A stretch of DNA of 64,000 bases. It comes from Saprospirales bacterium. Its GTDB lineage: Bacteria; Bacteroidota; Bacteroidia; Chitinophagales; Saprospiraceae. Position numbers and translations under genes: made by a program. Shown here one piece after another: positions 8,458 to 32,211 of this stretch. Below the pieces are notes generated by a model. The model was not told the origin of the DNA and did no database searches. It saw only the letters and a list, made by a program, of their open reading frames with translations. The stretch is taken from contig RECS01000123.1 in NCBI GenBank assembly GCA_007693915.1, forward strand, positions 19,923 through 83,922, written 5' to 3'. Numbering within the stretch: position 1 is the stretch's first letter; each line of letters opens with the position of its first letter.

Positions 8458-8507
8458 ATAACCCTTAGGGTATAAAGAATTTTTTTTAACAAAAACCATT
8501 AATAATT

Positions 8508-10080: not shown

Positions 10081-13000
10081 CTACTCGAGAATAATCATCT
10101 TTCTCGAAGCATTAAAGTTCTCAGCATCAAGTCTGTAATACATCACACCACTACCCGGTAAATCATTTCCGGAGATGGTCAATTCGTTATACCCTGCAGT
10201 GAAGTCAGCAGTTTGCTGGTAAATCAATTTTCCGGTGACATCAAAAATACTTAGCGTTGCATTTTGATTTTCAGGTAATCTAAACCCGATAATTGTCTCA
10301 TCCTTGAAAGGGTTAGGTCTGTTTTGATACAATACATATCCATCACCTTCAAGAGTTTGGTCGAATCTGATTTCCAATGGTCTGTTTTCCATATTTGTGT
10401 AAATCTCAGCAGAAGTAATTACAGAACCCATAAACAGATTATCGGATATAGTTCCGCTTTGCTTTGCATGGAAAGTCAATTCAAATAATTCTTCATTTTC
10501 ATTTAATTCCATAGCTGAAACATCAGACCAGGATACAGTTAATAAACCTTCACTCAGGTAAGTAAATCCGAAATTTTTGTCATCAATATTTACAAGCCCC
10601 TCCTTCAAGTCAATCAATTCAAATACTTCAGTATCAAACATGAATGTACCTTGGAATCCCAACAAATTGGCAAAGTCAGCAGCTCTGAATGGGACTGTAA
10701 CTAGTTCACCTCTTTCAAATGAGCGGTCATCCACCATAAACGCAAGAGGATATTCATTACTTCTTTCTTCTGATGAATTACTATTTGCAGTAGCAGAACT
10801 ATTCAAGTCACCTACTTTTACAGCAGTGAAGCTGGCATCAAGTAGCGCCTGATTAAAGTTTCTCACTACATAGGTTTCATTGAAGTTACTATTTAATGGA
10901 TTGCCCTGAACAAATTGATTATACATGTCGATAAATCTCCATGAATTGTTATTCTGAAATTCATCATTAGTACCGAGTATTAATCTTCTCAATTCTGCTA
11001 CATCAATTACGTTTACATCACCACTCCTATTAATATCGGCGGCAAAGTATTGATAGGGATCTTCAAAAGGAGTGATTCCCAGAATATGTCTTTGCATTAA
11101 AACAATATCGTAAGTGGTCACACCATTTAAAGGATCATCATTTTTAAAAGGGACTATTTCATAGTCTTCGTTAAAAGGTACTGAAGTAAACCCATAGAAT
11201 CCATTGTCATTACTCAAAGAAGGTGCCATGGCTGATCCTTCTAAATAAACTGAAACATTTTCTACCGGCTCATTATCCTGATTGGCAATTAATCCTGCAA
11301 TTGCTCCGCCTGATCCACTGCCGGAATCAGGGCACACCTCGTTATTATCTTGAACTATTAGGTAGGTAATACAGTAATCCTGATTTCCATTTTCATCTGT
11401 TACCCAGATTTCTACAAAGTTTTGACCAAGGTCATCACAGTTAAATACCCTAATAGTGTCACTGAAATCGGGTGAGAATGAAAGTGTAATATCATACCCA
11501 CAAGAATGGAAACTACCTGCATCAAACCAACTAGCTTTTACATCTAATTCTGCCCAATCAGCAATACCGTCACCACTTAAGTCCATTGGCATTAGTTCTA
11601 CTGCAAGGCCATTATAACAAACAGGTGATGGCTGCTTACCGTTCACTATTTCAAACAGATGTGAACATGTCGTCCTATTTCCACAGCCATCCTGAACCGT
11701 CCAGATAATTCTGTGGACACCTAGTGGATACTCACCACTAGCTTCATTCGGTGCATTGCCCGCTGCTGCAAAAGGATTGTTGTTATTAGTGAAATCAATT
11801 GTTCCATTATTAAAGGCGTCTATCTGATATGACCATACAAGGTCAGCCGCATCTGTGCAATCATCTTCAGCATCCTGAGTCAATTCAATAAAAGCGACAG
11901 AGCAGTCAGGATCAAAAGATGTTATCGAAATATCCTCGCAATCTGAGGCAAATAACGGACCAATAGTATTGTTTACTTTAATGGTTTGTGTATGTTCCCA
12001 AATCTGGTATTGACCATTGTTAAACTGACACCAATCAATAACCTTCCATTTTCTCAAAATTTTAAAGCAAGATGGATCATCTGGTGAGCTGAAGTAGAAC
12101 ACATGATCTTCGGGATCATTCGCAGCAACCAAATCGCAAATACCGGCATTCAAAATCGGTCTTCCGGTAACATCAGGACCTAAGTCACCGGGATCACACA
12201 TACCAGGATCATTCTCGATTGTCACATCATCTGGCCATACAATATTGCTTGGATTGAATGGAGAGAAATTTGTAACGCTAATGGTTTGAACACAGGAAGT
12301 TGAAGGGCCACCCGGACCAATTGCCGTGAATGTTCTTGTAATTTCACCACCACCGCACTGATCGATATTTGTGGAAGAAGACTCAAATACTTCCACTTCA
12401 CAATTATCATATGCAAATCCATCCAAGCCCCAGTTATTTGGATCTGGCACATTTGGATTATCCGGATCGCTAATGATAATTGGATTTCTCGGATCTAAAT
12501 TTGGGTTTTGTAAATTAAGCAAGTTTTCAATCTCAACAACAGTCCCAAAAATATCGAGATTGTCTGGATTGAAAATAAACTGACAACTAATAGTGATATC
12601 CGGGGGACAGCTGATAGTCGCAGGGAGTTTATCCTGAACCTCTACCTCCACCATACACTCATTGAAATTTCCTGCTTCATCCCATACTCTCACAACAACC
12701 ATGGAGAGATTATTGGGAATATCACAACATGAAAATTCTACATAAGGACGAAATTCCGTATCATATCCACAAGACGGATCCATACGGGCTACTTCAAGAA
12801 AATCAATGCCACACTCATCATAGCTTCCATTATCAAATACCTCAGCAAATACTTTTGCAAGACCATTTGAACCAAGTGATACAACTGTAACAGTATTACA
12901 TACTGCTACAGGAGGAGTTTGATCAACAACTGTGACGGTCATTTGACAGCTATTGGAATTACCACACTCATCATAAGCAGTATAAATAACAGTATTTTCA

Positions 13001-14127
13001 CCAACTTCAAGGCTTACAATACCACCATTACTGTTTTCTATTATGCCACCTGGATAAGATACATCTACCTTGTCCACTTCATTACAAATATCAGAAACTA
13101 ATGCAGGTGGTAAAAAAACTGTACCTGAACAACCATTGGTAGTAGTAGAAACAGTAATATCAGCGGGACAAACAATTTCAGGTCCTTCTTCATCTACTAT
13201 TTCAATTACCTGAACATAAGTTCTTGCTATTTCGGTATTGCACCAATACTCTCTGACAGTCCAGGTCCTCATAATTTTTTCTTTGCAATTAAAGGTTGGA
13301 AGAACTAAATCGGAGTAAGTAGTAAAGGCGTTGCAATAAGAACCATGTAAAGGAAATAATTCAACTCCATCAATCGTCGGTACTCCCGTAAAAGATGGAT
13401 CTGGGTTTCCGCTTGCATCTTTGGGATAGTCTTCATCACATGCAATTGCACTTCCCTCTGCTACGGAAAAATTGGCAGGAAAATTTACCTCCTCTAGGTC
13501 AATTCTCTCAAGGTAGTAGGTCTTAGTACAGCTAGCAGAATTACCTGATGCATCAGTTGCTGTATAAGTCCTGTAGATAATCTTTACAAAATTGGAATCA
13601 CAATTTAAATGATCAAACGATTCACCTGAAAGATTGACGACAATATCATCAGTTGGTGTGCAATTGTCAGAAACCACAGGACCATCATAATCAATTAATG
13701 TCCAACAAGCTACTGTATCAACACTGCACTCAATATGAGGAGGCATTTTATCCTCAATGTGAATAGTACTCCAGCAATAGTTTCCACTTGGAATGTCTGT
13801 AACCCTGACGGTTAATGTTTCATCTACATATTCACCAGTTACAACAGGTGAGGTAGGTATAGGAAGGTGGTCATCACCCAATACCTCTACAAGATAATCA
13901 CCTGAACATTCAGAGGGTTTTGAAACCATTTCCCAGGTAATTTCTGCTTCGCAATTTTGATCTACAGAGACTTGTGTGTTAATACATGCCATCACACAAT
14001 TCTGTGCATTGATCGTGAATGAATTAATGAAAAGGAAAAGACCAAATAATGGCAGAAACCGAAACAGCTTCTTTAAGTTATTATCAAGCCTGACCTGCTC
14101 AATTGAAGTTAAGTTAGTTTTCTTCAT
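10081..14127 (-). CDS. Giant Cys-rich T9SS-secreted surface protein, paralogue 1 (HYR-type repeats + dockerin-like + cohesin-like + type-A CTD)
   Basis: 1348-aa ORF with a signal peptide (...FTINAQ). It has many Cys-containing beta-sandwich modules, including HYR-type units (PEIVCPADITVSTTTNGCSGTVFLPPALVSDIC...YTAYDECGNSNSCQMTVTVVD), and recurrent RTWTV/KWKVIDWC motifs. The C-terminal cassette is CRD-like, a 58-aa dockerin-like module (~10969-11142), a cohesin-like module (~10357-10752) and a T9SS CTD (YQNRPNPF...RKMIILE, ~10084-10332). Confidence 0.85.
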   Translation of the reverse strand: MKKTNLTSIEQVRLDNNLKKLFRFLPLFGLFLFINSFTINAQNCVMACINTQVSVDQNCEAEITWEMVSKPSECSGDYLVEVLGDDHLPIPTSPVVTGEYVDETLTVRVTDIPSGNYCWSTIHIEDKMPPHIECSVDTVACWTLIDYDGPVVSDNCTPTDDIVVNLSGESFDHLNCDSNFVKIIYRTYTATDASGNSASCTKTYYLERIDLEEVNFPANFSVAEGSAIACDEDYPKDASGNPDPSFTGVPTIDGVELFPLHGSYCNAFTTYSDLVLPTFNCKEKIMRTWTVREYWCNTEIARTYVQVIEIVDEEGPEIVCPADITVSTTTNGCSGTVFLPPALVSDICNEVDKVDVSYPGGIIENSNGGIVSLEVGENTVIYTAYDECGNSNSCQMTVTVVDQTPPVAVCNTVTVVSLGSNGLAKVFAEVFDNGSYDECGIDFLEVARMDPSCGYDTEFRPYVEFSCCDIPNNLSMVVVRVWDEAGNFNECMVEVEVQDKLPATISCPPDITISCQFIFNPDNLDIFGTVVEIENLLNLQNPNLDPRNPIIISDPDNPNVPDPNNWGLDGFAYDNCEVEVFESSSTNIDQCGGGEITRTFTAIGPGGPSTSCVQTISVTNFSPFNPSNIVWPDDVTIENDPGMCDPGDLGPDVTGRPILNAGICDLVAANDPEDHVFYFSSPDDPSCFKILRKWKVIDWCQFNNGQYQIWEHTQTIKVNNTIGPLFASDCEDISITSFDPDCSVAFIELTQDAEDDCTDAADLVWSYQIDAFNNGTIDFTNNNNPFAAAGNAPNEASGEYPLGVHRIIWTVQDGCGNRTTCSHLFEIVNGKQPSPVCYNGLAVELMPMDLSGDGIADWAELDVKASWFDAGSFHSCGYDITLSFSPDFSDTIRVFNCDDLGQNFVEIWVTDENGNQDYCITYLIVQDNNEVCPDSGSGSGGAIAGLIANQDNEPVENVSVYLEGSAMAPSLSNDNGFYGFTSVPFNEDYEIVPFKNDDPLNGVTTYDIVLMQRHILGITPFEDPYQYFAADINRSGDVNVIDVAELRRLILGTNDEFQNNNSWRFIDMYNQFVQGNPLNSNFNETYVVRNFNQALLDASFTAVKVGDLNSSATANSNSSEERSNEYPLAFMVDDRSFERGELVTVPFRAADFANLLGFQGTFMFDTEVFELIDLKEGLVNIDDKNFGFTYLSEGLLTVSWSDVSAMELNENEELFELTFHAKQSGTISDNLFMGSVITSAEIYTNMENRPLEIRFDQTLEGDGYVLYQNRPNPFKDETIIGFRLPENQNATLSIFDVTGKLIYQQTADFTAGYNELTISGNDLPGSGVMYYRLDAENFNASRKMIILE

Positions 14128-14382
14128 GAGAACTTTGTTTTAGTTAGTAAAATTTTAAATACAATGACCGAATTTATTGAACCAACTCGTCCTCAAGCAG
14201 CTTATAACCGACTATCCGGAAGAGATGACCAAAAGCGTTTCTTCTTTGAATGCGCACTTGCATTCATGCAGGTTTATTTATTTAAGGTAGGTTGGGTTGG
14301 TTGGTTTTTTTTATGTAATCTAATTGTGGTTGGAAATAAATTAAGATTACAAGTAATACATGACTTATCATGTTTTCAGGAG

Positions 14383-14390
14383 CAAATATA
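14383..14390 (-). promoter_or_regulatory. Candidate -7 promoter box (TATATTTG) for the 1348-aa gene
   Basis: Exact TAnnTTTG on the minus strand, about 260 nt upstream of the ATG at 14127. The same octamer plus a following GC occurs upstream of the 1682-aa gene. Confidence 0.25.
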
Positions 14391-14493
14391 TTACGATTAT
14401 TTTTAATTCAACAAGTCTTCTTGTGGGTATTTTTTAGATTATATTTTTTTATAATGTGTAATAGATTGACTGCAAGTAGATATTGATAAAAAT

Positions 14494-14530
14494 AAAAAAA
14501 CCTCTCCTTCAAACTTTTTTGAAGGAGAGG
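14494..14530 (-). terminator. Rho-independent terminator of the 1682-aa gene
   Basis: Perfect 13-bp stem (CCTCTCCTTCAAA/TTTGAAGGAGAGG, 14501-14530) with a 4-nt loop, followed on the minus strand by U7. Confidence 0.7.
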
Positions 14531-14589
14531 TTCCATCCCAAAAAACAGTAAACTATATTTTGGATTTCAGTTAACTTAAACAATTGTCA

Positions 14590-19638: not shown

Positions 19639-19725
19639 GAGAACTTAGTTTTAGTTTTAAAATCGTTATATATAGGATAGCTGATGTAATGAAATACATA
19701 CAGATATATCTATATCAGTCTATGC

Positions 19726-19761
19726 GTAGGTTGGATAAAAAAATCAGGTAGGTTGGATAAA
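19726..19761. promoter_or_regulatory. Two perfect 14-bp direct repeats GTAGGTTGGATAAA spaced 22 bp apart in the leader/promoter region of the 1682-aa gene
   Basis: Copies lie at 19726-19739 and 19748-19761, 88-123 nt upstream of the ATG at 19638. The core GGTTGGA recurs upstream of paralogues 1 (14328-14334) and 3 (29700-29706). Confidence 0.35.
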
Positions 19762-19835
19762 TATTACAATTATTATTAACTTATACAACTCTTTTAATCA
19801 GCTATAAATAAATTACTAATATCTGTAATACATTG

Positions 19836-19843
19836 CAAATATA
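19836..19843 (-). promoter_or_regulatory. Candidate -7 promoter box (TATATTTG) for the 1682-aa gene
   Basis: Exact TAnnTTTG on the minus strand (context GTTTATATTTGCAATG), about 200 nt upstream of the ATG. Confidence 0.25.
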
Positions 19844-19984
19844 AACACTTTTTATAATATATAACAAACTAATTAATAAGGTATTTTTTACATATTTTTT
19901 TTTATTATGGGTAGATCATCTTAAATATAATAGTTTCACACCTTTACATATTTTTTGCGATCATATTTGAAATTATGAAATATG

Positions 19985-20027
19985 AAAAAATTAAAAATGG
20001 GGTAACGAAATACACTCGCTACCCCAT
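19985..20027 (-). terminator. Rho-independent terminator of the 3144-aa gene
   Basis: 11-bp stem (AUGGGGUAGCG/CGUUACCCCAU, including one G-U pair) with a 9-nt loop, followed on the minus strand by UUUUUAAUUUUUU. It lies about 25 nt after the stop. Confidence 0.6.
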
Positions 20028-20050
20028 TTAGATAGTATTCTAAAGGAATT

Positions 20051-26000: not shown

Positions 26001-29000
26001 TCTCCAGCCTCAACTGATCTACCACATTGATCAACTATATCAGTTGGAAATGGTATGACATACAATGAATCCGGACATGGTATGGTGTCAGTTTGATTTG
26101 CTGGCAGGATTGGACCTTCGTTCAACTCAATCGTATAAACAAAGCTCCACTCTTTAGAATTTTCAGCACAATCTATATAAGTCCAGGTATAAGTTCTTTG
26201 TCCCTCACATTCCGGCTTTTCACTTACCACAGGCCCCATAGGTGTAAGGGGATTATCACATGCATCCAGAACAACAGGTGGTGGCGGAACTACATCTGTA
26301 TCATCAGGGCAAGCCACTGTAGCCTGACCATTAACAGGCAACTCGAAATCTTCGTATTCAATTATATAGATAAATTCCCAAATAAATTCATTCCCCGCAC
26401 AATCCTCATAAGTATAGATGTATGACCGTGTACCTTCACAAGTAACCGGATCAGGGTCATCTGTTATAGCAGGTTCAGGAGCCACTAATACATTTCCACA
26501 GGCATCTTCAACTACTGGTAAATTAATAGGATTCGTCGCCTGATCGACACAGTTTACAATGGCTAAAGTCTCCACAGGACCTCCTATTTCAGTTGGCGGA
26601 TCAGTTATTTCAATAATATAGGTACCTGTAAACTGATTTTGGTTTCCTGCACAATCTTCAAAAGTCCATGTAAATGTTACCATCCCTTCACATTCCGGAA
26701 ATTCACTTATCTCAGGGTCACCAATGGGTTCAAGTTCTATAAAACAATTATCAAATACTTCAGGAGGTTCAGGCATCCCGATCTCCCCAATGCACATGAT
26801 AGGAAAATCAAAGTCGGATATAGTCTCAAAGGGTTGGTATTGAACTAAAAAAGTATAGGACCAAAATTGGATATTCCCGGCACAATCCTCATATTGAAAA
26901 ATATACTCTGCTTCACCCTCGCATTCTGGAATTTCTGGAGTTTGAACTAATACCCCCTCTAGTTCATTTCCACAATTATCAAAAACAACTGGAGGAGTAG
27001 GAGTCTTAATTTCTAAAGAACATTCAATAGTATCAATCACATTGGATACCCCAATTTCAAAATTTTCAAATTCAATAATGTAGGTAAATATCCAATTATT
27101 GGAATTTCCTGCACAATCTGTAAAAGTCCAGGTATAAATTCTTTCCCCTTCACATTCTGGTTTTTCAGTCACTTCAGGACTACTTGGCTGAATGGGATTA
27201 CCGCAGGAGTCATTTACCAAGGGAGGCTCTGGCTGGTTGTCTGTATCATCCGGGCAACTTACTACCATTACTTCATTTTCAGGCACTGAAAATCCCTCGT
27301 ATTCGATGGTATAAGTAAATGTCCAATCTAAAGTATTTCCATTGCAATCCTCATAAGTATAGGTATATACCCTTACACCCTCACAATCTGCCCCCGAAGG
27401 ATCATCAAAAACTGAGGAAGAGACCGGTGTTAAAATCCTGCCACAAGCATCTTCTACCACAGGCAAACTTGGATCAAGAGCTTCTTCAAAACAACTAACT
27501 GTAGTTGCGGAAAGCACCTGACGGGTGATTTCAAGTTCACCGGGATTGAGGAGATCAATCCTTTGAATATGAGTAAACTGAAGTCCAGGATAACAAGATT
27601 GCTCCGAAATCCAGGTTCTGTATATTGTTGAACAAAAATCATTATCAGTAGCAATAGAATCGGAAAAACCAAACTGTATTATTCCATTACAAGCATCAGC
27701 CGTGACTTCAGGATGACTGTTTATTTCATTAGGGTCGATGGAACTAGGACAACTAACGATTAGGGTATCCACTGGCCAGATAATATTGTCCTCAGAAAAA
27801 TCAAAAGGATTGGTAACAGTTAAGGTTTGTACACAGGAGTCTCCTATGCCACCCGTATTAAATACAAAATGTGTAATAAATACATTTCCCTCCCAACAAG
27901 AATCAATCTCAACACTTACTTCAAAATCAAATATTAGATCACAAAGTCCAATTGCCTCAGGTTCTCCAAAACGAGAAAAATCTAGTGAAAGCTGATCACA
28001 AGTAATGGCTGAATCTGGAGCACAAGATATAATTACCGGAGGAACCTTGTCTTGGATGGTTATTTCAAACATACAGAAGTTAGCATTTCCATTAACATCA
28101 GTAACCTTTACTTCGACTGATACGGACTGTTCTACATCCTCACAACAAAATGCAATACTGTCCCCAAAGTCCAAATCCTCCTGAGAATCACATAAATCTT
28201 CCATTCTTCTTATTTCCACCTCCCCTATTCCACAATTATCTGTGAATGTAAATCCAGAGGTAATGACTTCCACTGGCACTCTCAATGGCTCATCATTTGT
28301 AAGAGAAATAACGAGATTTTGGCACAATAGTATCGGTGGTACATTGTCCTCAACAGTCACTGTGTACTCGCAAGTACTCATATTCAAACAAGGATCAATT
28401 GCCTGAACTTCAATAGTATTTTCCCCAATTGGCAGGACAGTTAATGGATCAAAATTCAAAGCACCATTAACCCTAAACCGAATGTCAATTTCGTTGGGAT
28501 CACTACAGGCATCCTCTACATCAATATTTGGAAAGATATATGTGGCATTGCATGTTTGTATTCCTGTAAAAATAGTAATATCATCAGGACAAATTAATCC
28601 AGGTGGAATGGTATCCTTAACCTCAATAGTCTGAGTGGAAGTAGTGATAATCATTGCGCACCAATCCATAGCAGTCCATGTTCTGAAAAATTTATATGAT
28701 TGGCCACCATTACAAAGGGGGATAGGATTAGTATCTGTATATCCTATTAAAATGCCGCAAGATGGAGTTATTTCATTCCCATTTAATGTAGGATAACCCA
28801 ATACATCAGGATCTATATCAGTAAATGGACAATTTAGTAAGGTGTCGGCAGGAAAAAATACCTGATTGATATCACCTCTGAGCACATTAATTGTCTGCTC
28901 ACAGCTTGAAGAATTCCCGGACTTATCAGTAACAGTCCAAGTTCGATTGATAACCAATTCATAATTGGGGTCACAATTCAAGGTTTGTATGTTTTGTGAA

Positions 29001-29485
29001 AACCACAAATCGAGCTCTTCGGTTTCAGTACAATTGTCATACAATGTATCTAAAAAGTAGTCCGGGTCAGCAAAATCCAAAGGTTGCCAGCAGTCTATTT
29101 CTTTTTCTGAACATTCAATCACCGGCGCCGATTTGTCCTCGATAAGCACCATGCTCCAGCAGGAATTATTGGTAACTGTATTCGTTACCTTTACAGAAAT
29201 GGTTTCATCCACATGGCTACAATCCGCTATATTACCTCCAATTGGCGGATCAACGATATTAACGTCAAATATACCGTAATTGGGTTGCGGATTAGAAAGT
29301 AGCATTTGCGGTGTCAAAACTGCTTCACCATTAGCTGAAAGGGAGACCTGAAGCCATGAGATACAACTCATTTGTAAAGCATTTAGCTCAGGGTTTTCAG
29401 CCTTTATTGGAAAAGCAATAAATAGTAATGCATAAAATAACATTCCTACCTGTAAGCTACTTTTTAAATTGTTTAACTTCTTCAT
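20051..29485 (-). CDS. Giant Cys-rich T9SS-secreted surface protein, paralogue 3 (repeat-expanded: 7 four-Cys units + 14 HYR units)
   Basis: 3144-aa ORF with a signal peptide (...LLFIAFPIKAE). Its N-terminal modules are colinear with paralogues 1 and 2, then come two internal repeat arrays (see the repeat features). The C-terminal cassette has a dockerin-like module at 20966-21139 (DDDPLNGVTTFDIYLLQRHILG...AADVNNDGLINVIDVLELRRLILGS), a cohesin-like module and a CTD (FQNRPNPF...VRKMIVK). Confidence 0.85.
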   Translation of the reverse strand: MKKLNNLKSSLQVGMLFYALLFIAFPIKAENPELNALQMSCISWLQVSLSANGEAVLTPQMLLSNPQPNYGIFDVNIVDPPIGGNIADCSHVDETISVKVTNTVTNNSCWSMVLIEDKSAPVIECSEKEIDCWQPLDFADPDYFLDTLYDNCTETEELDLWFSQNIQTLNCDPNYELVINRTWTVTDKSGNSSSCEQTINVLRGDINQVFFPADTLLNCPFTDIDPDVLGYPTLNGNEITPSCGILIGYTDTNPIPLCNGGQSYKFFRTWTAMDWCAMIITTSTQTIEVKDTIPPGLICPDDITIFTGIQTCNATYIFPNIDVEDACSDPNEIDIRFRVNGALNFDPLTVLPIGENTIEVQAIDPCLNMSTCEYTVTVEDNVPPILLCQNLVISLTNDEPLRVPVEVITSGFTFTDNCGIGEVEIRRMEDLCDSQEDLDFGDSIAFCCEDVEQSVSVEVKVTDVNGNANFCMFEITIQDKVPPVIISCAPDSAITCDQLSLDFSRFGEPEAIGLCDLIFDFEVSVEIDSCWEGNVFITHFVFNTGGIGDSCVQTLTVTNPFDFSEDNIIWPVDTLIVSCPSSIDPNEINSHPEVTADACNGIIQFGFSDSIATDNDFCSTIYRTWISEQSCYPGLQFTHIQRIDLLNPGELEITRQVLSATTVSCFEEALDPSLPVVEDACGRILTPVSSSVFDDPSGADCEGVRVYTYTYEDCNGNTLDWTFTYTIEYEGFSVPENEVMVVSCPDDTDNQPEPPLVNDSCGNPIQPSSPEVTEKPECEGERIYTWTFTDCAGNSNNWIFTYIIEFENFEIGVSNVIDTIECSLEIKTPTPPVVFDNCGNELEGVLVQTPEIPECEGEAEYIFQYEDCAGNIQFWSYTFLVQYQPFETISDFDFPIMCIGEIGMPEPPEVFDNCFIELEPIGDPEISEFPECEGMVTFTWTFEDCAGNQNQFTGTYIIEITDPPTEIGGPVETLAIVNCVDQATNPINLPVVEDACGNVLVAPEPAITDDPDPVTCEGTRSYIYTYEDCAGNEFIWEFIYIIEYEDFELPVNGQATVACPDDTDVVPPPPVVLDACDNPLTPMGPVVSEKPECEGQRTYTWTYIDCAENSKEWSFVYTIELNEGPILPANQTDTIPCPDSLYVIPFPTDIVDQCGRSVEAGEPQVESMTENNLQIITYTYEYEDCAGNIAEWVFTLVIDIEDLEIGCPENIEVSNDPGLCEADITIDPAVVTGGCGIDSLFNSYNFTEDASDIYPVGETEVIFTVVDITGITATCTFTVTVNDEEAPIIDCPADVTVSTDEGQCFTTEVELGEAEFSDNCPGIVLEVSIPDTFELGVTIITYTVTDASGNTAECEQTVTVEDNEDPTIECPEELVVSNDAGECFATDVEFDPAAVADNCGIDTVIILAPDTFLLGTTTIVYIVTDINGNTAECETSVTVIDGELPILECPDEIIVEVDLGECEAEVTIVITATDNCSDSLLITNSFNDGGADASGVYPLGETIVVFTVEDESGNVASCSVTVIVEGDDALEIECPENVEVSNDPGLCEADIMIDSAVVTGGCGIDSLFNSYNFTEDASDIYPVGETFVTFTVVDLTGATATCIFTVTVNDEEAPIIDCPANVTASTDEGECFATEVDLGTPEFSDNCPGVMLEVSIPDTFEVGLTVIVYTAIDSSGNSSSCSQMVTVEDDEDPSISCPEELVVSNDVGECFATDIDFDAAVVSDNCGVDTVIITAPDTFFLGSNTIIYTVIDVNGNSAICEASVRVIDDELPELVCPDEIVVEVEPMECEAEVMLMITATDNCTDLLTITNSFNNGGADASGIYPLGETIVVFTVEDEAGNVDSCSVTVIVEGDEPLEIDCPENIIQTNDPDSCEASITIPPATVTGGCGIESITNDFNFTEDASGIYSVGETVVEFTVVDSFGASATCTFIVIVEDNEDPIIVCPEDIVQENDPGECGADIEVTVVSFSDNCGIDTIFNDFSETIAADGFYSVDTTVVTYTVIDVNGNSAECSFTVVIFDNEIPMLTCPDDVVIEVDPGECEALVTGLIASATDNCTDSLVIVNSFNDGGADASDLYPLGETIVVFTVTDEAGNIDSCSVTVLIEGDEPLEVICPEDIMVDNDSEECFAFVTIDSAMVTGGCGLDSLFNDFNFTADASDFYNVGITVVTFTAIDEVGAIAICSFTVTVNDTEAPTIECPEDITVSADDGECFATDFDLGDAEANDNCPGVIIDVIIPDTFELGTTSIIYIAIDSSGNTAECEQTITVEDNEDPTINCPEDIVQVNDPGECGAFLDIDIPDFSDNCPGASITNDFTNVDDASALYPVDTTVVTYTVVDASGNSAGCSFTVIILDDEAPVFIACPDNEVLPCSEYEEGIDISQFGEPEVNDNCPVGLQVIETFEIDIDSCTSTGTITRMFTVFDSAGNSDSSCTQVITFEGVTSLDSSDFIWPNDFILITDCSIFNPDSIPGGEPILNPDVETCNEVSIVMEDEMIMVDTACDIIIRTWTVTDLCNPLTGEWVFIQTITVEDTIAPEFTVAPIDTLTAFADSISCDAFVEIMVEAIDDCGGDVIITNNSPFADSSGADASGVYPIGLTTFEFEAVDNCGNVTILEVNVLVVDTIPPVINCFKFRYIIDDNLSAVAVDTDFLTELSDNCIDSIDIEITFDLSDFDLDTLFFNFTNCDSIPGLFPITIYAIDASGNIDSCETQIAFEDPMGFCPDSLVGNINGLVYHHDMDRMVEGVELNVESPFFNDQINTDYFGLFEFLHVPQLSNMQLRPFKDDDPLNGVTTFDIYLLQRHILGINVITDPYYLIAADVNNDGLINVIDVLELRRLILGSSDQFPNNTSWRFLDKNFIIPHGVMPTQIDLPETVDIYFSTDRFFQQDFVGVKIGDLNGNVATTDLRSESRQRTSYEGIYVEDRLVNAGEIVTVEFHLRNGIEFNGIQFDLRWDNIALDIEDINWADQLEITDNSYLINFDGLETSIRLSQSSPSLLKPGDNGQLFSLTFIANQSGKLSEWIRFEESSIPTEIFSGFSDYNILELRFNEVFVSENDDLKSFQLFQNRPNPFTGITSIPFITDEDGRASLVIYDVRGKQLAVLSDEFTEGYHHWEINARALGLSNGVYYYKLQVGNHQAVRKMIVK
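22400..25867 (-). repeat. In-frame array of 14 consecutive HYR-type units (~79-88 aa each) inside the 3144-aa gene
   Basis: Every unit starts with CP and ends ...C.FTVTV.D.E.P.I. (for example CPENIEVSNDPGLCEADITIDPAVVTGGCGIDSL...TATCTFTVTVNDEEAPIID). Unit types run A-B-C-D, A-B-C-D, A-E-D, A-B-E. The array is 3468 nt, which is 1156 codons. Confidence 0.8.
23906..25867 (-). repeat. Tandem duplication of a 981-nt (4-HYR-unit, 327-codon) block
   Basis: The first Cys codons of successive A-type units are at 25865, 24884 and 23903, exactly 981 nt apart. A ~110-nt stretch aligned by eye shows 14 mismatches (about 87% identity). Confidence 0.75.
25868..27510 (-). repeat. In-frame array of 7 units (~77 aa) of an unclassified four-Cys repeat
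   Basis: The unit signature is C...P.PP.V.D.CGN...CEG...Y.WTF.DCAGN...W.F.Y.IE (for example VSCPDDTDNQPEPPLVNDSCGNPIQPSSPEVTEKPECEGERIYTWTFTDCAGNSNNWIFTYIIE). Units 1-2 resemble units 5-6. Confidence 0.65.
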
Positions 29486-29764
29486 TTTTAAAAGTTTTAA
29501 TAGACTGTCAAATAATGGTTTCTTGTTTAGAAAATTACCTTAAACGGGTATCCAAAAGACTGTAAGCCCTTGAATCCCCGTCCTCAGATAATAATCATCA
29601 GGTTTGTGTAACAGATGATAGCAACATCATCAAACAAGTCAGTTTAAATCTGACTCTTAATCGGAAATTCAATTTCTTTCTTAGAGAAGTTTTTAATCAG
29701 GTTGGAAAAATTAAAAACCTAAATCCTAAGCTTGGAATCGAAATCCAGATTTTTTCTTCTTTCT

Positions 29765-29798
29765 AAAAAAAGACCCTGCATATCCACCGGATACGCAG
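29765..29798 (-). terminator. Rho-independent terminator of the 798-aa gene
   Basis: 10-bp stem (CUGCGUAUCC/GGAUAUGCAG, including one G-U pair) with a 3-nt loop, followed by GGUCUUUUUUU on the minus strand. It lies 17 nt after the stop. Confidence 0.6.
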
Positions 29799-29814
29799 AG
29801 CCCATGTTCATGGT

Positions 29815-32211
29815 TTATTTTCTTATCAATCTTTTTACAATCCTATTTGCTTCTGTCTCAATATGCAAAAGATATATCCCCGACACAACAGACTCAGCAT
29901 CCAAAGTCCAGGTCGCTCCGTCTAAATTTTCTTCACCTATTGTCATATTTTGAATTATTCTACCACTTATATCAGTAAGTTTTAAGGTCACAGGACTGCT
30001 AATAGGGAGACTTTCATTTATTTCTATTGATAATTCATTTGAAAATGGATTCGGAAATACGCTAATCAAATCATAGATATTAGCACTTGATGGGTTGATC
30101 TGATCAGCAGGAATAAGTTTAAGTTTTTTAACATCGGACAAATCAGAATAAAATTCACTTTCAAATGATTTTGATTCATAGCTTACCATTTCCTTAGTGA
30201 AAATCAATTCCAGAATATGTTGACCCTCCGAGACTAATAATTTTTGATTAGAGAAAACGCTGACTCTCAACTCACCATCAGGCATAACGTTCCATCTGAT
30301 TTCATCCTGTGAAAAAATATCAGAATTCACTTGCAGTAATTCATTTTCAGACCCAAGATGCATTCCAAACTGGAAGCCGTAAGTATGCATTTTTAAATCA
30401 TTTAGCCCAAGTCTAAGAATATGAAGTCCATTTTCAATTTCTGCATCCACTTTGAATTCAGTAATACTTCTCTCCGAAGCCTGATCATCAGACAGACTAT
30501 TTGATCTCGCTGATGAATTCAAATCACCAAGCTTGATACCTGAAAAATTGACATTTTCAATAATTTCCTCAGGGTCAATTAATTCAATTTTAACCGGTAT
30601 TTCATCCAAATAGGGTTGTACCCTATTTTCAACTTCATATTCGGAATTGTAAAATCTCCATGAGCTTCCCGACGGAAAATTGCTCCGATTGCCAAGGATT
30701 ACATCTCTTACAATAAGAAGGTCTTTACTGTTAATTTCACCATCGAAATTAACATCGGCTGCTAATAGGTCCATAGTATTTTCGGGTTCCCATTCTCCAA
30801 GAATATATTTACTCATCAACAGCAGATCAAAGGTAGTTACTCCATTTAAAGGGTCATCAGATGAAACAGCCTCAACATACAATTTATCAGCATCACCTTT
30901 ATTGACCAACTCATAAGAACCATTTATAACGGGAGCTGTACTCAGTACTATATCATTTTCATCTTTCAGAATTACCGATACATGGTCTATATAATCGTAT
31001 CTGATGTCATAAACTGTTCCTCCTACAATTAGGGAATCTTCCGGAGGACAAAGACCAAAATTATCGGTGATGGTAATATAAGTTATACAAAAATCGCTAT
31101 TTCCGGATTCATCAGTTACAGTAAGTATGACTTCTACCCTGCCTAAATCATCACAGTCCACTCTCTGAGGACTTACTTCTAATTTCAAATCTTCATCCGC
31201 GGTACAATTATCAAAACTTTTAAGATTAAACCAATGGGCTTGAAGATCAAGATAGTAGCCATCCGACATCTGACTCAAAGTGGAGGATAAACCGTGATAA
31301 CATACCGGAGTAGGTTGTTTCATATCCTTCACAGTGACCTTAGTGGTACAACTTGATTTTTCAGAACAACCATCATCCGCCGTAAAAGTAACTACAGTAG
31401 TTCCCAAAGGATAGAATCCGCTAGCATCCCCATCCCTTTTAATGGCAAAAGGGCTGTCATTCATCACATTGGCAGGGTCTCCACATACAGAGGTAGCCGT
31501 TGCTTTATCCAATTGAACATCAGCACCATCGCACTCATCATTTGTTGTAGAAACAGTAATATCTTCAGGACAGACAATCTCAGGTCCCTCTTCTGATTTG
31601 ACCATTATTACTTGCGTATGCTCCCAAATTCCTTTAGGATAGTATGAGTTTGGATCAAATACACAACAATCAATAACCGTCCATGTCCTTAATATTTTTT
31701 TACATCCTCCACCAAAATCAAAAACCCAATCATGAAAACTGGAAAGGGGTTTCCCGCATTCCACTTCATCAAATACAGGTTTATCAAAACCCGGAGGAAG
31801 ATTATTTGGATGAAGAGAAGCTCCACATTCATCGGTTGTATAGTCTGCAGGCCAGGTAATATTAGACAAACCAAAAGCACCCCCTTGTACAGTTATGACC
31901 TGTGTGCAGGAATGCCAAACATTGTAGTAATCTTTTACCATCCAAGTACGAATGATGTGACCTACACCACATTCATTCAAGTGATATGCAACATGGGGGT
32001 TAGGAGCAGGATAAGGATCACCATATCCATGAACAAAAGCTATCCCAAATTCGTCGAGATCACTTAAATCTTCGTCGCAAGGAACAATGACATTGGGTGG
32101 ACAATCCAATGTAAGTAAAGCATCAGCATTTAAATGGAAATTATCAGCTGATAATTGGTAGCTGCAAACCAATAGTGCAGCGAGTACATGTGTAAGAATC
32201 ACTCTTTTCAT
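29815..32211 (-). CDS. Cys-rich T9SS-secreted surface protein, paralogue 4 (minimal version of the family)
   Basis: 798-aa ORF with a signal peptide (...LLVCSYQLSAD). It matches the C-terminal half of paralogues 1 and 2 (KILRTWTVIDCCVF; an HYR-type unit PEIVCPEDITVSTTNDECDGADVQ...). The cassette has a dockerin-like module at 30688-30861 (SDDPLNGVTTFDLLLMSKYILG...AADVNFDGEINSKDLLIVRDVILGN), a cohesin-like module and a CTD (FPNPFSNE...VKRLIRK). Confidence 0.85.
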   Translation of the reverse strand: MKRVILTHVLAALLVCSYQLSADNFHLNADALLTLDCPPNVIVPCDEDLSDLDEFGIAFVHGYGDPYPAPNPHVAYHLNECGVGHIIRTWMVKDYYNVWHSCTQVITVQGGAFGLSNITWPADYTTDECGASLHPNNLPPGFDKPVFDEVECGKPLSSFHDWVFDFGGGCKKILRTWTVIDCCVFDPNSYYPKGIWEHTQVIMVKSEEGPEIVCPEDITVSTTNDECDGADVQLDKATATSVCGDPANVMNDSPFAIKRDGDASGFYPLGTTVVTFTADDGCSEKSSCTTKVTVKDMKQPTPVCYHGLSSTLSQMSDGYYLDLQAHWFNLKSFDNCTADEDLKLEVSPQRVDCDDLGRVEVILTVTDESGNSDFCITYITITDNFGLCPPEDSLIVGGTVYDIRYDYIDHVSVILKDENDIVLSTAPVINGSYELVNKGDADKLYVEAVSSDDPLNGVTTFDLLLMSKYILGEWEPENTMDLLAADVNFDGEINSKDLLIVRDVILGNRSNFPSGSSWRFYNSEYEVENRVQPYLDEIPVKIELIDPEEIIENVNFSGIKLGDLNSSARSNSLSDDQASERSITEFKVDAEIENGLHILRLGLNDLKMHTYGFQFGMHLGSENELLQVNSDIFSQDEIRWNVMPDGELRVSVFSNQKLLVSEGQHILELIFTKEMVSYESKSFESEFYSDLSDVKKLKLIPADQINPSSANIYDLISVFPNPFSNELSIEINESLPISSPVTLKLTDISGRIIQNMTIGEENLDGATWTLDAESVVSGIYLLHIETEANRIVKRLIRK

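What the first reader, a model, noticed from the sequence alone, without database searches (positions are those of the whole stretch)
10081..32211. Four tandem giant Cys-rich T9SS cargo paralogues, each carrying both a dockerin-like and a cohesin-like module next to the CTD anchor: candidate self-assembling surface scaffold
SEEN: One third of the window is four co-oriented paralogues (1348, 1682, 3144 and 798 aa), each with a signal peptide, an AT-rich spacer of 240-460 bp and a terminator. I recognised no enzyme domain. The bodies are strings of Cys-containing beta-sandwich-type modules (HYR-type CPxDI...C.FTVTV.D units; recurrent RTWTV.D.C motifs). The last ~430 aa are colinear in all four. 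The order is: a CRD-like unit (...NGFYGF...YEIVPFK); a 58-aa module with two EF-hand-like segments (DDPLNGVTTYDIVLMQRHILG ... AADINRSGDVNVIDVAELRRLILG); N.SWRF; VKVGDLN; a ~130-aa cohesin-like sandwich (GELVTVPF...LLGFQGTFMFD...LTVSWSD); and a type-A T9SS CTD (YQNRPNPF...). The 58-aa module sits 290-304 aa from the C-terminus in every copy. ESTABLISHED: Dockerin-cohesin pairs mediate Ca-dependent protein-protein assembly in cellulosomes. Type-A CTD cargo is cleaved and covalently anchored to the outer-membrane surface by the T9SS. INFERENCE: Proteins carrying both partner modules adjacent to the anchor could polymerise or cross-link one another into a lattice that displays variable Cys-rich heads for adhesion to prey, algae or particles. 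I know of no experimental characterisation of such an arrangement.
Basis: partly seen in the sequence, partly recalled or inferred. Interest (0 to 1): 0.8.

Follow-up and report, generated by a model that had tools for sequence, protein, structure and literature searches.

The report
Surface giants with self-matching cohesin–dockerin tail
Four neighbouring genes of a Saprospirales bacterium encode giant, cysteine-rich secreted surface proteins that all end in the same tail holding both halves of the cellulosome "plug and socket" pair. Sequence covariation indicates the two halves touch each other within the same protein species, so a well-known assembly device is being used in an unstudied, non-cellulolytic way.

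Summary
Four co-oriented minus-strand genes (1348, 1682, 3144 and 798 aa) each have an AT-rich spacer and a strong terminator. Each has a Cys-rich HYR-module body and no enzyme domain.

All four share a colinear ~430-aa tail:
- a CRD-like sandwich
- a dockerin
- conserved strands
- a short tether
- a cohesin
- a type-A T9SS CTD

Pfam, a family profile searched against PDB sequences, and AlphaFold plus Foldseek all support the dockerin and cohesin calls.

The cassette is not a local oddity. It defines a very large Saprospirales family, often in tandem arrays, and databases name its members only generically.

New here is a covariation analysis of 477 tails. Dockerin recognition positions 10, 17 and 22 co-evolve with one exposed face of the cohesin in the same polypeptide, through many independent co-substitutions. 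So the two modules form a cognate, self-matching pair.

One plug plus one socket cannot build a lattice. A fixed-length short tether and the AlphaFold confidence favour an intramolecular clasp, possibly able to swap between copies. Multi-cohesin scaffoldin-like genes beside family members in other genomes keep binding in trans open.

Verdict: a new variant of a known kind, uncharacterised experimentally, of moderate to high interest.

The parts
10081..14127 (-). Gene A, 1348 aa (GenBank TVQ45607, 'HYR domain-containing protein'): signal peptide, about 7 HYR-like Cys-rich modules, conserved tail
14590..19638 (-). Gene B, 1682 aa (TVQ45609): signal peptide, N-terminal extension, about 7 HYR-like modules, conserved tail
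20051..29485 (-). Gene C, 3144 aa (TVQ45610): signal peptide, about 28 HYR/HYR_4C modules, conserved tail. There is no DNA-level tandem repeat, so the array is old and diverged.
29815..32211 (-). Gene D, 798 aa (TVQ45611): signal peptide, about 3 HYR-like modules, most divergent tail with a weak cohesin-like module
10801..11310 (-). A: compact CRD-like sandwich + dockerin + following strands (aa 940-1109), an X-Doc-like unit. The dockerin proper is 10972-11142 (aa 996-1052).
   Evidence: AlphaFold sub-model pLDDT 94.1, pTM 0.88. Foldseek: XDoc dyads and type I dockerins, TM 0.69. Pfam. Couplings CRD-post and Doc-post. Coordinates.
10360..10746 (-). A: cohesin-like beta-sandwich (aa 1128-1256)
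   Evidence: Pfam Cohesin 28.5 bits, above GA. Foldseek top hits are cohesins. Family profile against PDB cohesins.
10084..10326 (-). A: type-A T9SS C-terminal sorting domain (aa 1268-1348)
   Evidence: TIGR04183 33.4 bits against cut-off 23
15316..15825 (-). B: CRD-like + dockerin + following strands (aa 1272-1441). Dockerin at 15487-15657.
14872..15258 (-). B: cohesin-like module (aa 1461-1589)
   Evidence: family cohesin sub-HMM 118 bits
14596..14835 (-). B: type-A CTD
20795..21313 (-). C: CRD-like + dockerin + following strands (aa 2725-2897). Dockerin at 20969-21139.
20345..20740 (-). C: cohesin-like module (aa 2916-3047)
   Evidence: sub-HMM 67 bits
20057..20296 (-). C: type-A CTD
30517..31035 (-). 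D: CRD-like + dockerin + following strands (aa 393-565). Dockerin at 30691-30861, the best Pfam dockerin score of the four (36.5 bits).
30094..30462 (-). D: divergent cohesin-like module (aa 584-706)
   Evidence: sub-HMM only 24.6 bits and partial. It keeps G248, Q250, S290, E332 and Y334 but lacks W291.
29821..30063 (-). D: type-A CTD
   Evidence: TIGR04183 37.4 bits
10019..10046 (-). Intrinsic terminator after gene A (12-bp stem + T-run)
14497..14534 (-). Intrinsic terminator after gene B (17-bp stem)
19995..20029 (-). Intrinsic terminator after gene C (15-bp stem)
29771..29803 (-). Intrinsic terminator after gene D (15-bp stem)

Best explanation
The four genes are separately transcribed paralogues of a very large Saprospirales family of T9SS-exported, non-enzymatic, fibrillar-adhesin-like proteins. 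Each has a variable N-terminal string of disulfide-rich HYR modules, the presumed binding or spacer part. Each also has a conserved, Cys-free C-terminal pedestal.

The pedestal starts with a compact unit: a CRD-like sandwich with a Ca-binding dockerin packed into it, resembling the X-module-dockerin dyads of type II cellulosomal anchors. A tether of about 10 variable residues joins this unit to a cohesin, which sits directly before the type-A CTD.

The dockerin and the cohesin of one gene product are a cognate pair that contact each other through the canonical surfaces. On the dockerin these are recognition positions 10 of repeat 1 and 17 and 22 of repeat 2. On the cohesin they are strand 3, strand 5 and the loop before strand 8.

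The most likely arrangement is an intramolecular clasp that locks the base of the stalk into a rigid, Ca-dependent pedestal next to the outer-membrane attachment point. The same interface could in principle open and be exchanged between copies (domain swapping) to give dimers or head-to-tail chains.

Shown: module identities, family size, 1:1 stoichiometry, Doc-Coh covariation.
Inferred: physical binding, cis rather than trans, Ca dependence, secretion and anchoring, adhesive role of the heads.
For: Module identity:
- Pfam and NCBIfam hits.
- The family profile hits PDB dockerins at E 1.5e-8 and cohesins at E 5e-6 to 1e-3.
- With the full-length profile, the two best PDB hits are ScaB dockerin (4uyq_B) and ScaC cohesin (4uyp_A), cognate partners of one crystal complex.
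- The AlphaFold tail model has pLDDT 92.7, and its top Foldseek hits are cohesins.
- The sub-unit model has pLDDT 94.1 and pTM 0.88. Its best hits are XDoc dyads and type I dockerins (TM 0.69, 35% identity).

Contact between the modules, from mean-field DCA on 477 unique tails (Meff 434):
- The top 50 pairs are almost all intradomain.
- Among long-range inter-domain classes, only Doc-Coh reaches the top 100: T96-S290 rank 33, R138-S290 rank 39, G143-I328 rank 70, R138-S292 rank 71.
- Four Doc-Coh pairs exceed the maximum of 31,443 control inter-domain pairs. 24 exceed the control 99.9th percentile, against 7.7 expected.
- T96, R138 and G143 are positions 10, 17 and 22 of the 22-residue dockerin repeats. 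These are the accepted recognition positions (PMC3413522).
- The coupled cohesin residues lie on a conserved polar stripe that alternates with hydrophobic residues: G248-Q250-T252, T288-S290-N292 and E332-Y334.
- This is not a single-clade effect. On a tree built from other columns, T96 changes at least 19 times. In 16 of 17 cases where a non-T96 sequence has a T-R-S-G nearest neighbour, S290 has changed too. The cluster-level Fisher test gives p = 1e-14.

For cis:
- pTM is 0.77 for the 439-aa tail.
- The tether has pLDDT 77-87 in the full model against 41-65 when the cohesin is absent.
- The tether is variable in sequence but fixed in length (median 18 aa, 5-95% range 15-20). Its first 7 residues couple to the first dockerin loop, next to T95/T96.
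- 143 of the ORFs in the window and fetched loci with any hit have exactly 1 Doc: 1 Coh: 1 CTD.

Other support:
- The dockerin is the most conserved tail module, 1.55 bits mean entropy against 2.16 for the CTD.
- T9SS genes lie in the window: PorP/SprF and a PorE-like gene.
- Precedent for self-recognition: the R. flavefaciens ScaH dockerin binds its own cohesin (PMC5301203).
Against: - No coordinates or PAE were available, so the cis packing is inferred from pTM and pLDDT only. An AlphaFold monomer run can also turn homotypic trans co-evolution into cis contacts.
- Covariation cannot separate cis from homo-oligomeric trans.
- mfDCA on about 430 effective sequences is underpowered. The top Doc-Coh pairs rank only 184 and 291 by MI-APC, and the tree used was a crude UPGMA.
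- Relatives exist that cannot form a cis pair: [CRD-Doc]x2-CTD without a cohesin, Doc-Coh-CRD-Doc-CTD, and an M43-like peptidase with a dockerin.
- Dockerin-less proteins with 3-5 cohesins sit beside family genes in other genomes. These argue that binding in trans also occurs in this system.
- The first Ca loop is non-canonical: Leu at position 5, Asn-Gly shifted to positions 6-7.
- Protein D's cohesin is weak.
- Secretion, CTD cleavage, anchoring, Ca binding and adhesion are all untested.
Confidence: 0.55

Rival explanations
1. The dockerin of one paralogue binds the cohesin of another, or of another copy, in trans. The anchored proteins then polymerise or cross-link into a surface lattice that displays the Cys-rich heads.
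For: - Both modules are real and covary at canonical interface positions.
- All four window paralogues carry the same core interface residues (T96, R138, S290, G/A248), so cross-pairing is chemically possible.
- Tandem arrays of 2-3 paralogues recur in 13 of 80 related loci.
- Trans binding is the classical behaviour of these modules.
Against: - Valency is 1 + 1 per protein, which gives chains, rings or dimers but no cross-linked lattice.
- Co-substitutions are within the same gene product, which fits self-pairing better than pairing between paralogues.
- A short, length-conserved tether that starts beside the interface, together with the AlphaFold confidence, favours a closed form. A closed form would out-compete trans partners through high effective concentration.
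Confidence: 0.15
2. Hierarchical, cellulosome-like docking. The dockerin of these proteins plugs into multi-cohesin scaffoldin-like proteins, and/or their cohesin receives dockerin-only cargo. The scaffoldin-like proteins carry SprB repeats and a type-B CTD and are held on the cell by PorP/SprF-type partners. The cohesin-dockerin pair would then be the means of retaining or organising type-A cargo on the surface.
For: - Dockerin-less, signal-peptide proteins with 3-5 cohesin modules are encoded immediately downstream of family members in three independent loci. One has 4 Pfam Cohesin stretches at 110.9 bits. Two carry SprB repeats plus CHU_C.
- Dockerin-only relatives exist, including two-dockerin proteins and an M43-like peptidase.
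- A PorP/SprF plus PorE-like pair lies in the window.
- A CTD-anchored multi-cohesin scaffoldin has been inferred from genomes of Cloacimonadota (PMC8542988).
Against: - No multi-cohesin or dockerin-only gene is in this 64-kb window.
- The scaffoldin-like cohesins differ from the tail cohesins at the dockerin-coupled position 290 (T, L, V or F instead of S), so compatibility is unknown.
- Such neighbours were seen in only 3-4 of 161 loci.
- This model does not explain why nearly every family member carries its own cohesin at a fixed distance.
Confidence: 0.15
3. No cohesin-dockerin binding at all. The two modules are just a Ca-stabilised helical insert and an Ig-like spacer of an ordinary T9SS adhesin stalk. 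They would be comparable to the Ig-like domain that precedes the CTD in gingipains, needed for folding or export.
For: - Non-cellulosomal cohesin- and dockerin-like modules are widespread, and most have no shown binding function (as summarised in PMC9012536).
- The first Ca loop is atypical.
- Pfam Cohesin is below threshold in three of the four proteins.
Against: - Inter-module covariation falls exactly at recognition positions 10, 17 and 22 and on one exposed cohesin face, with many independent co-substitutions.
- The dockerin is the most conserved module of the tail.
Confidence: 0.1

Closest known systems
Type I cohesin-dockerin pair of Acetivibrio cellulolyticus (ScaC cohesin 3 with ScaB dockerin, PDB 4UYP/4UYQ)
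   Same: - These are the best solved-structure sequence matches to both modules.
- The recognition pattern is the same: S/T + hydrophobic at positions 10-11, R-x at positions 17-18, G at position 22 (PMC3413522).
- The predicted interface uses the same dockerin positions.
   Different: - There, the two modules are on different proteins of an anaerobic cellulosome. Here, they lie about 75 residues apart in one polypeptide of an aquatic Bacteroidota surface protein without enzymes.
- The first Ca loop here is atypical.
- The asymmetry of the two repeats (R17 only in repeat 2, T10 mainly in repeat 1) predicts a single binding mode rather than a dual one.
X-module-dockerin (XDoc) dyads of type II/III anchoring complexes (C. 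thermocellum CipA XDoc, PDB 2B59 and 5G5D)
   Same: A beta-sandwich N-terminal to a dockerin and packed against it as one rigid unit. These are the best Foldseek matches to the whole CRD-Doc unit.
   Different: - The match is weak (E 7.5e-4, TM about 0.3, rmsd 11 Å).
- The sandwich here is CarboxypepD_reg/transthyretin-like.
- About 55 further residues after the dockerin fold back onto both the sandwich and the dockerin.
Monovalent proteins with one cohesin and one dockerin: Ruminococcus flavefaciens ScaH, Archaeoglobus fulgidus cohesin/dockerin proteins
   Same: One cohesin plus one dockerin in a single polypeptide. The ScaH dockerin was shown to recognise its own cohesin (PMC5301203). Archaeal pairs bind specifically (as summarised in PMC9012536).
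   Different: - Those are small adaptor proteins or archaeal proteins of unknown role.
- They have no T9SS signal and no giant HYR head.
- No fixed short tether or clasp has been described for them.
T9SS type-A CTD cargo and fibrillar adhesins of Bacteroidota (Por_Secre_tail-anchored stalk proteins; Aureispira GhpA grappling hook as a Saprospiria example)
   Same: - Signal peptide plus C-terminal T9SS sorting domain.
- Long strings of Ig-like modules.
- Por_Secre_tail is a recognised anchor of fibrillar-adhesin-like proteins (PMC8286594).
- Giant T9SS surface structures mediate prey capture in Saprospiria (bioRxiv 10.1101/2024.01.29.577165).
   Different: - No cohesin or dockerin is reported in those proteins (0 occurrences in both papers).
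- GhpA forms heptamers and is paired with PorP/PorE homologues.
- Oligomeric state is unknown here.
Genome-inferred cellulosome-like system with a CTD-anchored multi-cohesin scaffoldin in Cloacimonadota (Ca. Stygibacter)
   Same: Cohesin and dockerin modules are combined with a T9SS-type C-terminal domain outside the Firmicutes (PMC8542988).
   Different: - There, dockerins sit on hydrolases and the cohesins are tandemly repeated on one scaffoldin.
- Here, every protein carries one of each and no enzyme.

Membership tests
Dockerin (Pfam PF00404, type I-like) | Sequence match to the family model above the curated threshold | tested here: met
   A 24.5, C 24.8 and D 36.5 bits against GA 22.9. 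B is just below at 21.1. The family profile hits PDB dockerins at E 1.5e-8.
Dockerin (Pfam PF00404, type I-like) | Two duplicated 22-residue segments, each a Ca-binding loop (ligands at positions 1, 3, 5, 9 and 12) followed by a helix | tested here: inconclusive
   Repeat 2 is canonical: D1 98%, N3 89%, S/D/N5, D12 100%. Repeat 1 keeps D/N1, D/N3 and D12 (100%) but has Leu at position 5 and Asn-Gly at positions 6-7. Pfam does not match profile positions 1-9.
Dockerin (Pfam PF00404, type I-like) | Three-helix dockerin fold | tested here: met
   The AlphaFold sub-model has three helices with pLDDT above 96. Foldseek matches type I dockerins 4dh2_D (TM 0.69, 35% identity) and 5nrk_D (TM 0.68).
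Dockerin (Pfam PF00404, type I-like) | Ca-dependent binding to a cohesin | not testable with these tools
   Only indirect evidence: covariation of recognition positions 10, 17 and 22 with cohesin residues.
Cohesin (Pfam PF00963) | Sequence match above the curated threshold | tested here: inconclusive
   Met in A only (28.5 against 24.1). B, C and D are not reported by Pfam. 13 of 29 full-length homologues match. The family profile hits PDB cohesins 3l8q at 4.9e-6, 4uyp_A at 2.2e-5 and NagJ at 8.6e-4. D is weak.
Cohesin (Pfam PF00963) | Nine-stranded jelly-roll beta-sandwich | tested here: met
   The AlphaFold model of tail A gives an all-beta module at residues 219-347 with pLDDT above 92. The Foldseek top hits are cohesins: 2w1n at E 3.7e-9, and single cohesins at TM 0.5-0.58. 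Strand numbering was inferred from strand order, not from a superposition.
T9SS type-A cargo | C-terminal type-A sorting domain (TIGR04183 / PF18962) plus an N-terminal signal peptide | tested here: met
   TIGR04183 scores 32.6-37.4 bits against cut-off 23 in all four. Signal peptides were read by eye only.
T9SS type-A cargo | Host encodes a T9SS; cargo is exported, the CTD is cleaved, and the cargo is anchored | not testable with these tools
   PorP/SprF (138 bits against 90.55) and a PorE/CHU_0125-like OmpA protein are in the window. Core T9SS genes were not seen in the 64 kb. Processing and anchoring are untested.
Cellulosome / scaffoldin system | Scaffoldin with several cohesins that integrates dockerin-bearing enzymes | tested here: not met
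   Each window protein has one cohesin and no enzyme domain, and there is no other cohesin or dockerin ORF in the window. Multi-cohesin proteins occur only in related loci.
HYR domain proteins (PF02494, PF23237) | Repeated HYR Ig-like modules with conserved Cys | tested here: met
   C has 15 HYR and 8 HYR_4C stretches. A scores 47.9 bits. D is weak at 20.2 bits. B was not reported by Pfam, but the iterated HMM finds 7 modules in it.
X-module-dockerin dyad (type II/III) | Ig-like module packed against a dockerin as one rigid unit that contributes to cohesin binding | tested here: inconclusive
   The unit is compact (pTM 0.88) and XDoc chains are the best whole-unit hits, but only at E 7.5e-4 and TM about 0.3. 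An in-silico dockerin deletion did not extend the CRD Pfam match.

The most novel reading that the evidence does not exclude
Saprospirales may possess a clade-wide, non-cellulolytic cohesin-dockerin assembly system riding on the T9SS. In this reading, thousands of giant HYR adhesins carry a self-cognate X-Doc/cohesin clasp next to the anchor. The clasp can open and swap between copies, or dock onto multi-cohesin SprB-like scaffoldins. The result would be a Ca-dependent, mechanically strong surface layer used for sheath formation, filament cohesion, attachment to algae or particles, or prey capture. It would be the first cohesin-dockerin 'surface-ome' of a Gram-negative phylum and a natural example of an auto-occupied, switchable cohesin-dockerin pair.
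Probability: 0.25. Interest if true: 0.8.

Novelty: new variant of a known kind. Interest (0 to 1): 0.6.

Why it matters
Cohesin-dockerin pairs are the textbook device for building cellulosomes, and they are widely used in synthetic biology and single-molecule mechanics. Their many non-cellulosomal occurrences have stayed largely unexplained.

Here, one fixed arrangement recurs in more than a thousand protein clusters of an ecologically important aquatic, wastewater and algal-associated order. The arrangement is an X-Doc-like unit, a short tether, a cohesin and a T9SS signal.

Covariation gives a concrete, testable residue-level interface: T96 and R138 against S290 and G248. If the pair is an intramolecular clasp, it would be a new use of the module pair, as a Ca-dependent lock at the base of a surface fibre. 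It would also be a ready-made self-binding, possibly switchable pair for engineering.

If the pair acts in trans with the neighbouring multi-cohesin proteins, it would extend cellulosome-like surface assembly to the T9SS of Bacteroidota. Either way, it offers a handle on the function of the largest surface proteins of Saprospiraceae, which currently carry only generic names.

Tried and rejected
- Nested-domain idea: I supposed the dockerin is inserted inside a complete CarboxypepD_reg sandwich. Deleting the dockerin in silico did not lengthen the Pfam match, which stayed at profile 2-52 of 82. Foldseek aligned only about 60 columns of CRD-like folds. I therefore describe only a compact unit (pTM 0.88; CRD-post and Doc-post couplings).
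- Fifth paralogue: the upstream 707-aa ORF is an EF-G-type GTPase, and tblastn finds only four tails in the window.
- Recent amplification of the HYR array in C: no DNA tandem repeats.
- Hidden enzyme or lectin in the heads: phmmer of heads A and B against PDB sequences found nothing. The family profile hits only SraP-type adhesin modules and one weak F5/8-type-C-containing chain.
- Single-clade artefact for the covariation: rejected by the parsimony and nearest-neighbour tests.
- Sigma-70 promoter scan: no excess over shuffles, and Bacteroidota promoters are not covered. TAnnTTTG motifs were found upstream of A, B and D but are not significant on their own.
- Peer et al. 2009 could not be read because it is not held.
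- The first genome scan with the 74-sequence alignment failed for lack of a conserved stretch. It was repeated with a 14-sequence alignment.
- The word-indexed protein search returned only proteins under about 770 aa. Full-length relatives therefore came from the loci and from the representative search.
- Coordinates and PAE of the AlphaFold models are not exposed, so cis packing could not be inspected directly.

Full report
**1. What is there**

The window region 10081-32211 holds four minus-strand ORFs of 1348 (A), 1682 (B), 3144 (C) and 798 aa (D), exactly as reported.
- The spacers between them are 462, 412 and 329 bp. They are AT-rich, with GC 0.23-0.34 against 0.37-0.385 in the genes.
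- Each gene ends in a strong hairpin plus T-run terminator with a stem of 12-17 bp. They are therefore four separate transcription units.
- The exact proteins are in GenBank from a MAG called 'Saprospirales bacterium' (TVQ45607, TVQ45609, TVQ45610, TVQ45611; contig 98.6 kb). Their names there are only generic: 'HYR domain-containing protein' and 'T9SS C-terminal target domain-containing protein'.
- Near-identical copies occur in one public sequencing run.
- The flanks are housekeeping genes (an EF-G-type GTPase, an epimerase, AnmK, AdoHcy hydrolase) and a small heavy-metal-binding-domain protein.

**2. Anatomy of the proteins**

Pfam and NCBIfam find HYR/HYR_4C modules, a weak CarboxypepD_reg (CRD) match, Dockerin_1, Cohesin (A only above threshold) and the type-A T9SS sorting domain. 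They find no enzyme.
- An iterated HMM counts about 28 HYR-like modules in C, 7 in A, 7 in B and 3 in D.
- All cysteines (20-132 per protein) lie in these heads. The last ~416 aa are Cys-free.
- Heads A and B have no solved-structure relative by single-sequence search.
- The family profile reaches only adhesin stalk modules such as SraP.
- There are no DNA-level tandem repeats, so the HYR array of C is old.

**3. The shared tail**

The last ~430 aa are colinear in all four proteins. Identity to A is 44, 37 and 29%, and a 439-position HMM aligns end to end.

AlphaFold on a 74-sequence alignment gives a confident model of tail A (pLDDT 92.7, pTM 0.77). Its parts are as follows:

| Tail residues | Element |
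|---|---|
| 31-85 | four CRD-like strands |
| 96-141 | three helices (the dockerin) |
| 154-195 | three more strands |
| 201-218 | a less confident stretch (the tether) |
| 219-347 | an all-beta module (the cohesin) |
| 348-358 | a short linker |
| 359-439 | the CTD |

- Foldseek against the PDB returns cohesins as the top hits: 2w1n at E 3.7e-9, CipA, the ScaA dyad and CaCohA2, with TM 0.5-0.58 to single cohesins.
- A profile of the family searched against all PDB sequences hits dockerins at E about 1.5e-8. It also hits cohesins at 5e-6 to 1e-3, a NOMO-type CRD repeat, and weakly T9SS CTDs.
- With the full-length profile, the two best hits are the ScaB dockerin and the ScaC cohesin of A. cellulolyticus. 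These are partners in one crystallised complex.
- A second model of residues 25-215 alone is a single compact body (pLDDT 94.1, pTM 0.88).
- The best whole-unit matches of that second model are X-module-dockerin dyads of type II complexes (E 7.5e-4). Its helical part matches type I dockerins at TM 0.69 and 35% identity.

The first Ca loop is atypical (Leu at position 5, Asn-Gly at positions 6-7). Protein D's cohesin is weak (24.6 bits and partial).

**4. How common it is**

The cassette is not peculiar to this locus.
- The tail of A has 111 relatives in the word-indexed search, and the tail of C has 1094 at E <= 1e-10.
- A scan of one genome per species found at least 545 confirmed copies, and a metagenome scan at least 527.
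- Named sources are almost all Saprospiraceae, Lewinellaceae, Haliscomenobacter, Phaeodactylibacter, Portibacter or 'Saprospirales'.
- No relative exceeds about 43% identity in the tail, apart from the same organism.
- The best 150 representatives at 50% clustering are giants of 1,300-7,400 aa. Most carry the whole tail at the C-terminus.
- Complete homologues in the loci are mostly 1,300-1,700 aa.
- Of 29 complete homologues scanned, 20 match Dockerin_1, 20 the CTD, 19 HYR and 13 Cohesin. None has an enzyme.
- Co-oriented tandem arrays of two or three copies occur in 13 of 80 loci.

**5. Do the two modules touch? Covariation**

From all fetched proteins and loci I aligned 477 unique tails (Meff 434, median identity 33%) and ran mean-field DCA with APC.
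- The top 50 pairs are almost all intradomain, so the signal is sound.
- Many Doc-post and CRD-post couplings confirm the compact CRD-dockerin unit.
- Among domain pairs that are not neighbours in that unit, only Doc-Coh enters the top 100. The pairs are T96-S290 (rank 33), R138-S290 (39), G143-I328 (70) and R138-S292 (71). T96-G248, V100-G248, L107-G248 and A135-G248 follow.
- Four Doc-Coh pairs exceed the maximum of 31,443 control inter-domain pairs. 24 exceed the control 99.9th percentile, against 7.7 expected.
- By MI-APC the same pairs rank lower (184 and 291). Doc-Coh is still the only long-range class in the top 200.
- Numbering each 22-residue repeat from its invariant Asp-12, T96 is position 10 of repeat 1, and R138 and G143 are positions 17 and 22 of repeat 2.
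- These are the accepted recognition positions. A. cellulolyticus dockerins have S(I/L) at positions 10-11, R(X) at 17-18 and G at 22 (PMC3413522). This family has T(F/Y/L), R(K/R) and G.
- On the cohesin side, the coupled residues lie on a conserved polar stripe that alternates with hydrophobic residues. The stripe is G248-Q250-T252 on the third strand, T288-S290-N292 on the fifth, and E332-Y334 on the strand after the 328-331 loop. That pattern is what one expects of one exposed sheet face.
- The coupling is not a single clade event. On a tree built only from CRD, post and CTD columns, T96 changes at least 19 times and S290 at least 60 times.
- Of 17 non-T96 sequences whose nearest neighbour is T-R-S-G, 16 have also replaced S290, mostly a polar pair replaced by an apolar pair.
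- At cluster level, 0 of 22 clusters keep S290 when T96 is lost (Fisher p = 1e-14).

I conclude, as an inference from covariation, that the dockerin and the cohesin of one gene product contact each other through canonical surfaces.

**6. Cis or trans?**

Covariation within one polypeptide fits a contact in the same chain or between copies of the same protein. It fits binding to other paralogues less well.

Points favouring cis:
- pTM is 0.77 for a 439-aa, three-body tail.
- The tether has pLDDT 77-87 with the cohesin present and 41-65 without it.
- The tether is variable in sequence but fixed in length (median 18 aa, 5-95% range 15-20).
- Its first seven residues couple to the first dockerin loop and the CRD. 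Only about 10 residues are therefore free, and they leave the unit right beside T95/T96.
- Stoichiometry is 1 Doc: 1 Coh: 1 CTD in 143 ORFs.

Points keeping trans open:
- Some relatives have two CRD-Doc units and no cohesin (P0048, P0195, P0197). One has Doc-Coh-CRD-Doc (P0114). One is an M43-like peptidase with a dockerin unit (P0098).
- In three independent loci, the gene immediately downstream of a family member encodes a signal-peptide protein with 3-5 cohesin modules and no dockerin. Two of these also have SprB repeats and a type-B (CHU_C) T9SS signal.
- Those cohesins share the invariant Gln-250 and Trp-291 but differ at position 290.

I had no access to model coordinates or PAE and no multimer predictor. 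The cis reading therefore remains an inference. In either case, one plug plus one socket gives closed monomers, swapped dimers, rings or chains. A lattice needs multivalent partners.

**7. Comparison with what is known**

- Cohesin and dockerin modules outside cellulosomes, including proteins with both, have been known since 1999-2009. Most are unexplained (summarised in PMC9012536).
- The R. flavefaciens ScaH dockerin binds its own cohesin (PMC5301203).
- A CTD-anchored multi-cohesin scaffoldin was inferred from Cloacimonadota genomes (PMC8542988).
- Por_Secre_tail is a recognised anchor of fibrillar-adhesin-like proteins (PMC8286594).
- Giant T9SS structures capture prey in Aureispira, another member of Saprospiria.
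- I found no paper that mentions dockerins together with any Saprospirales genus. I also found none describing this fixed cassette.

The finding is thus a new variant of a known kind. The modules are known and the secretion route is known. The arrangement and the apparent use as a self-matching pair at the base of a giant adhesin-like protein are new.

**8. Limits**

- Signal peptides were judged by eye.
- Strand numbering of the cohesin follows strand order in the model, not a superposition.
- The DCA rests on about 430 effective sequences and a crude tree.
- Anchoring of type-A cargo is extrapolated from Porphyromonas-type systems.
- Nothing is known here about expression, Ca binding, oligomeric state or ligands of the heads.

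Noticed in passing
L092:4568-7327 (+), L076:11682-14792 (+), L044:4568-7723 (+); also a minus-strand ORF in L061: The gene immediately downstream of a family member encodes a dockerin-less, signal-peptide protein with several cohesin modules. L092 has 5 modules and (GGND)n linkers. L076 and L044 have 3 each, plus SprB repeats and a type-B CHU_C T9SS signal. L061 has Cohesin + DUF11 + DUF7619 + a type-A CTD. These are scaffoldin-like proteins of Saprospiraceae.
   Followed up: partly
P0048, P0195, P0197, P0181, P0114, P0098 (metagenomic relatives): These are architectural variants of the cassette. Some have two CRD-dockerin units followed by a CTD with no cohesin. One has Doc-Coh-CRD-Doc-CTD. 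One has an M43-like metallopeptidase with a dockerin unit and a CTD.
   Followed up: partly
window 40323-43880 (-): A PorP/SprF-family T9SS membrane protein (337 aa, TIGR03519 at 138 bits) sits directly upstream of an 847-aa PorE/CHU_0125-like OmpA protein that has a C-terminal DUF1573 Ig-like domain. The same kind of pair (GhpB/GhpC) anchors the Aureispira grappling hook. No type-B CTD cargo gene is adjacent here.
   Followed up: partly
window 6518-7684 (-), 7921-8951 (+), 9349-9924 (-): Just downstream of the array lie a 388-aa thioredoxin/DsbD-like protein, two DUF4168 proteins and a 191-aa protein with heavy-metal-binding (HMBD) motifs. A periplasmic thiol-disulfide oxidoreductase next to genes encoding 20-132 cysteines each may be relevant, or may be coincidence.
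   Followed up: no
window 30094-30462 (-), protein D aa 584-706: The cohesin-like module of the shortest paralogue is much more divergent than the others: 24.6 bits against 67-139, Trp-291 replaced by Val, and a partial match. Yet its dockerin is the best Pfam match of the four. It may be a degenerating or re-specified socket.
   Followed up: partly
tail A residues 195-207 (window ~10780-10818) and family-wide: The motif K-x-G-D-x-N (G197 and D198 99% conserved, N200 86%) and the following G-S-A-x-A-N are as conserved as the dockerin itself. They couple to the first, atypical dockerin loop (N92-A203, T95-S202). They may supply the missing Ca ligand or cap that loop.
   Followed up: partly
window 46335-49580 (-): A 1081-aa tricorn-protease-like protein (PD40 beta-propeller, Tricorn C1 and PDZ, peptidase S41). 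The exact sequence is not in the protein collection, although its neighbours are.
   Followed up: no
window 14128-14589 (A-B spacer): An 80-aa ORF on the opposite strand is called as a gene in the public assembly of the near-identical contig (L161:1722-1964). It is probably spurious, lying in an AT-rich spacer.
   Followed up: no
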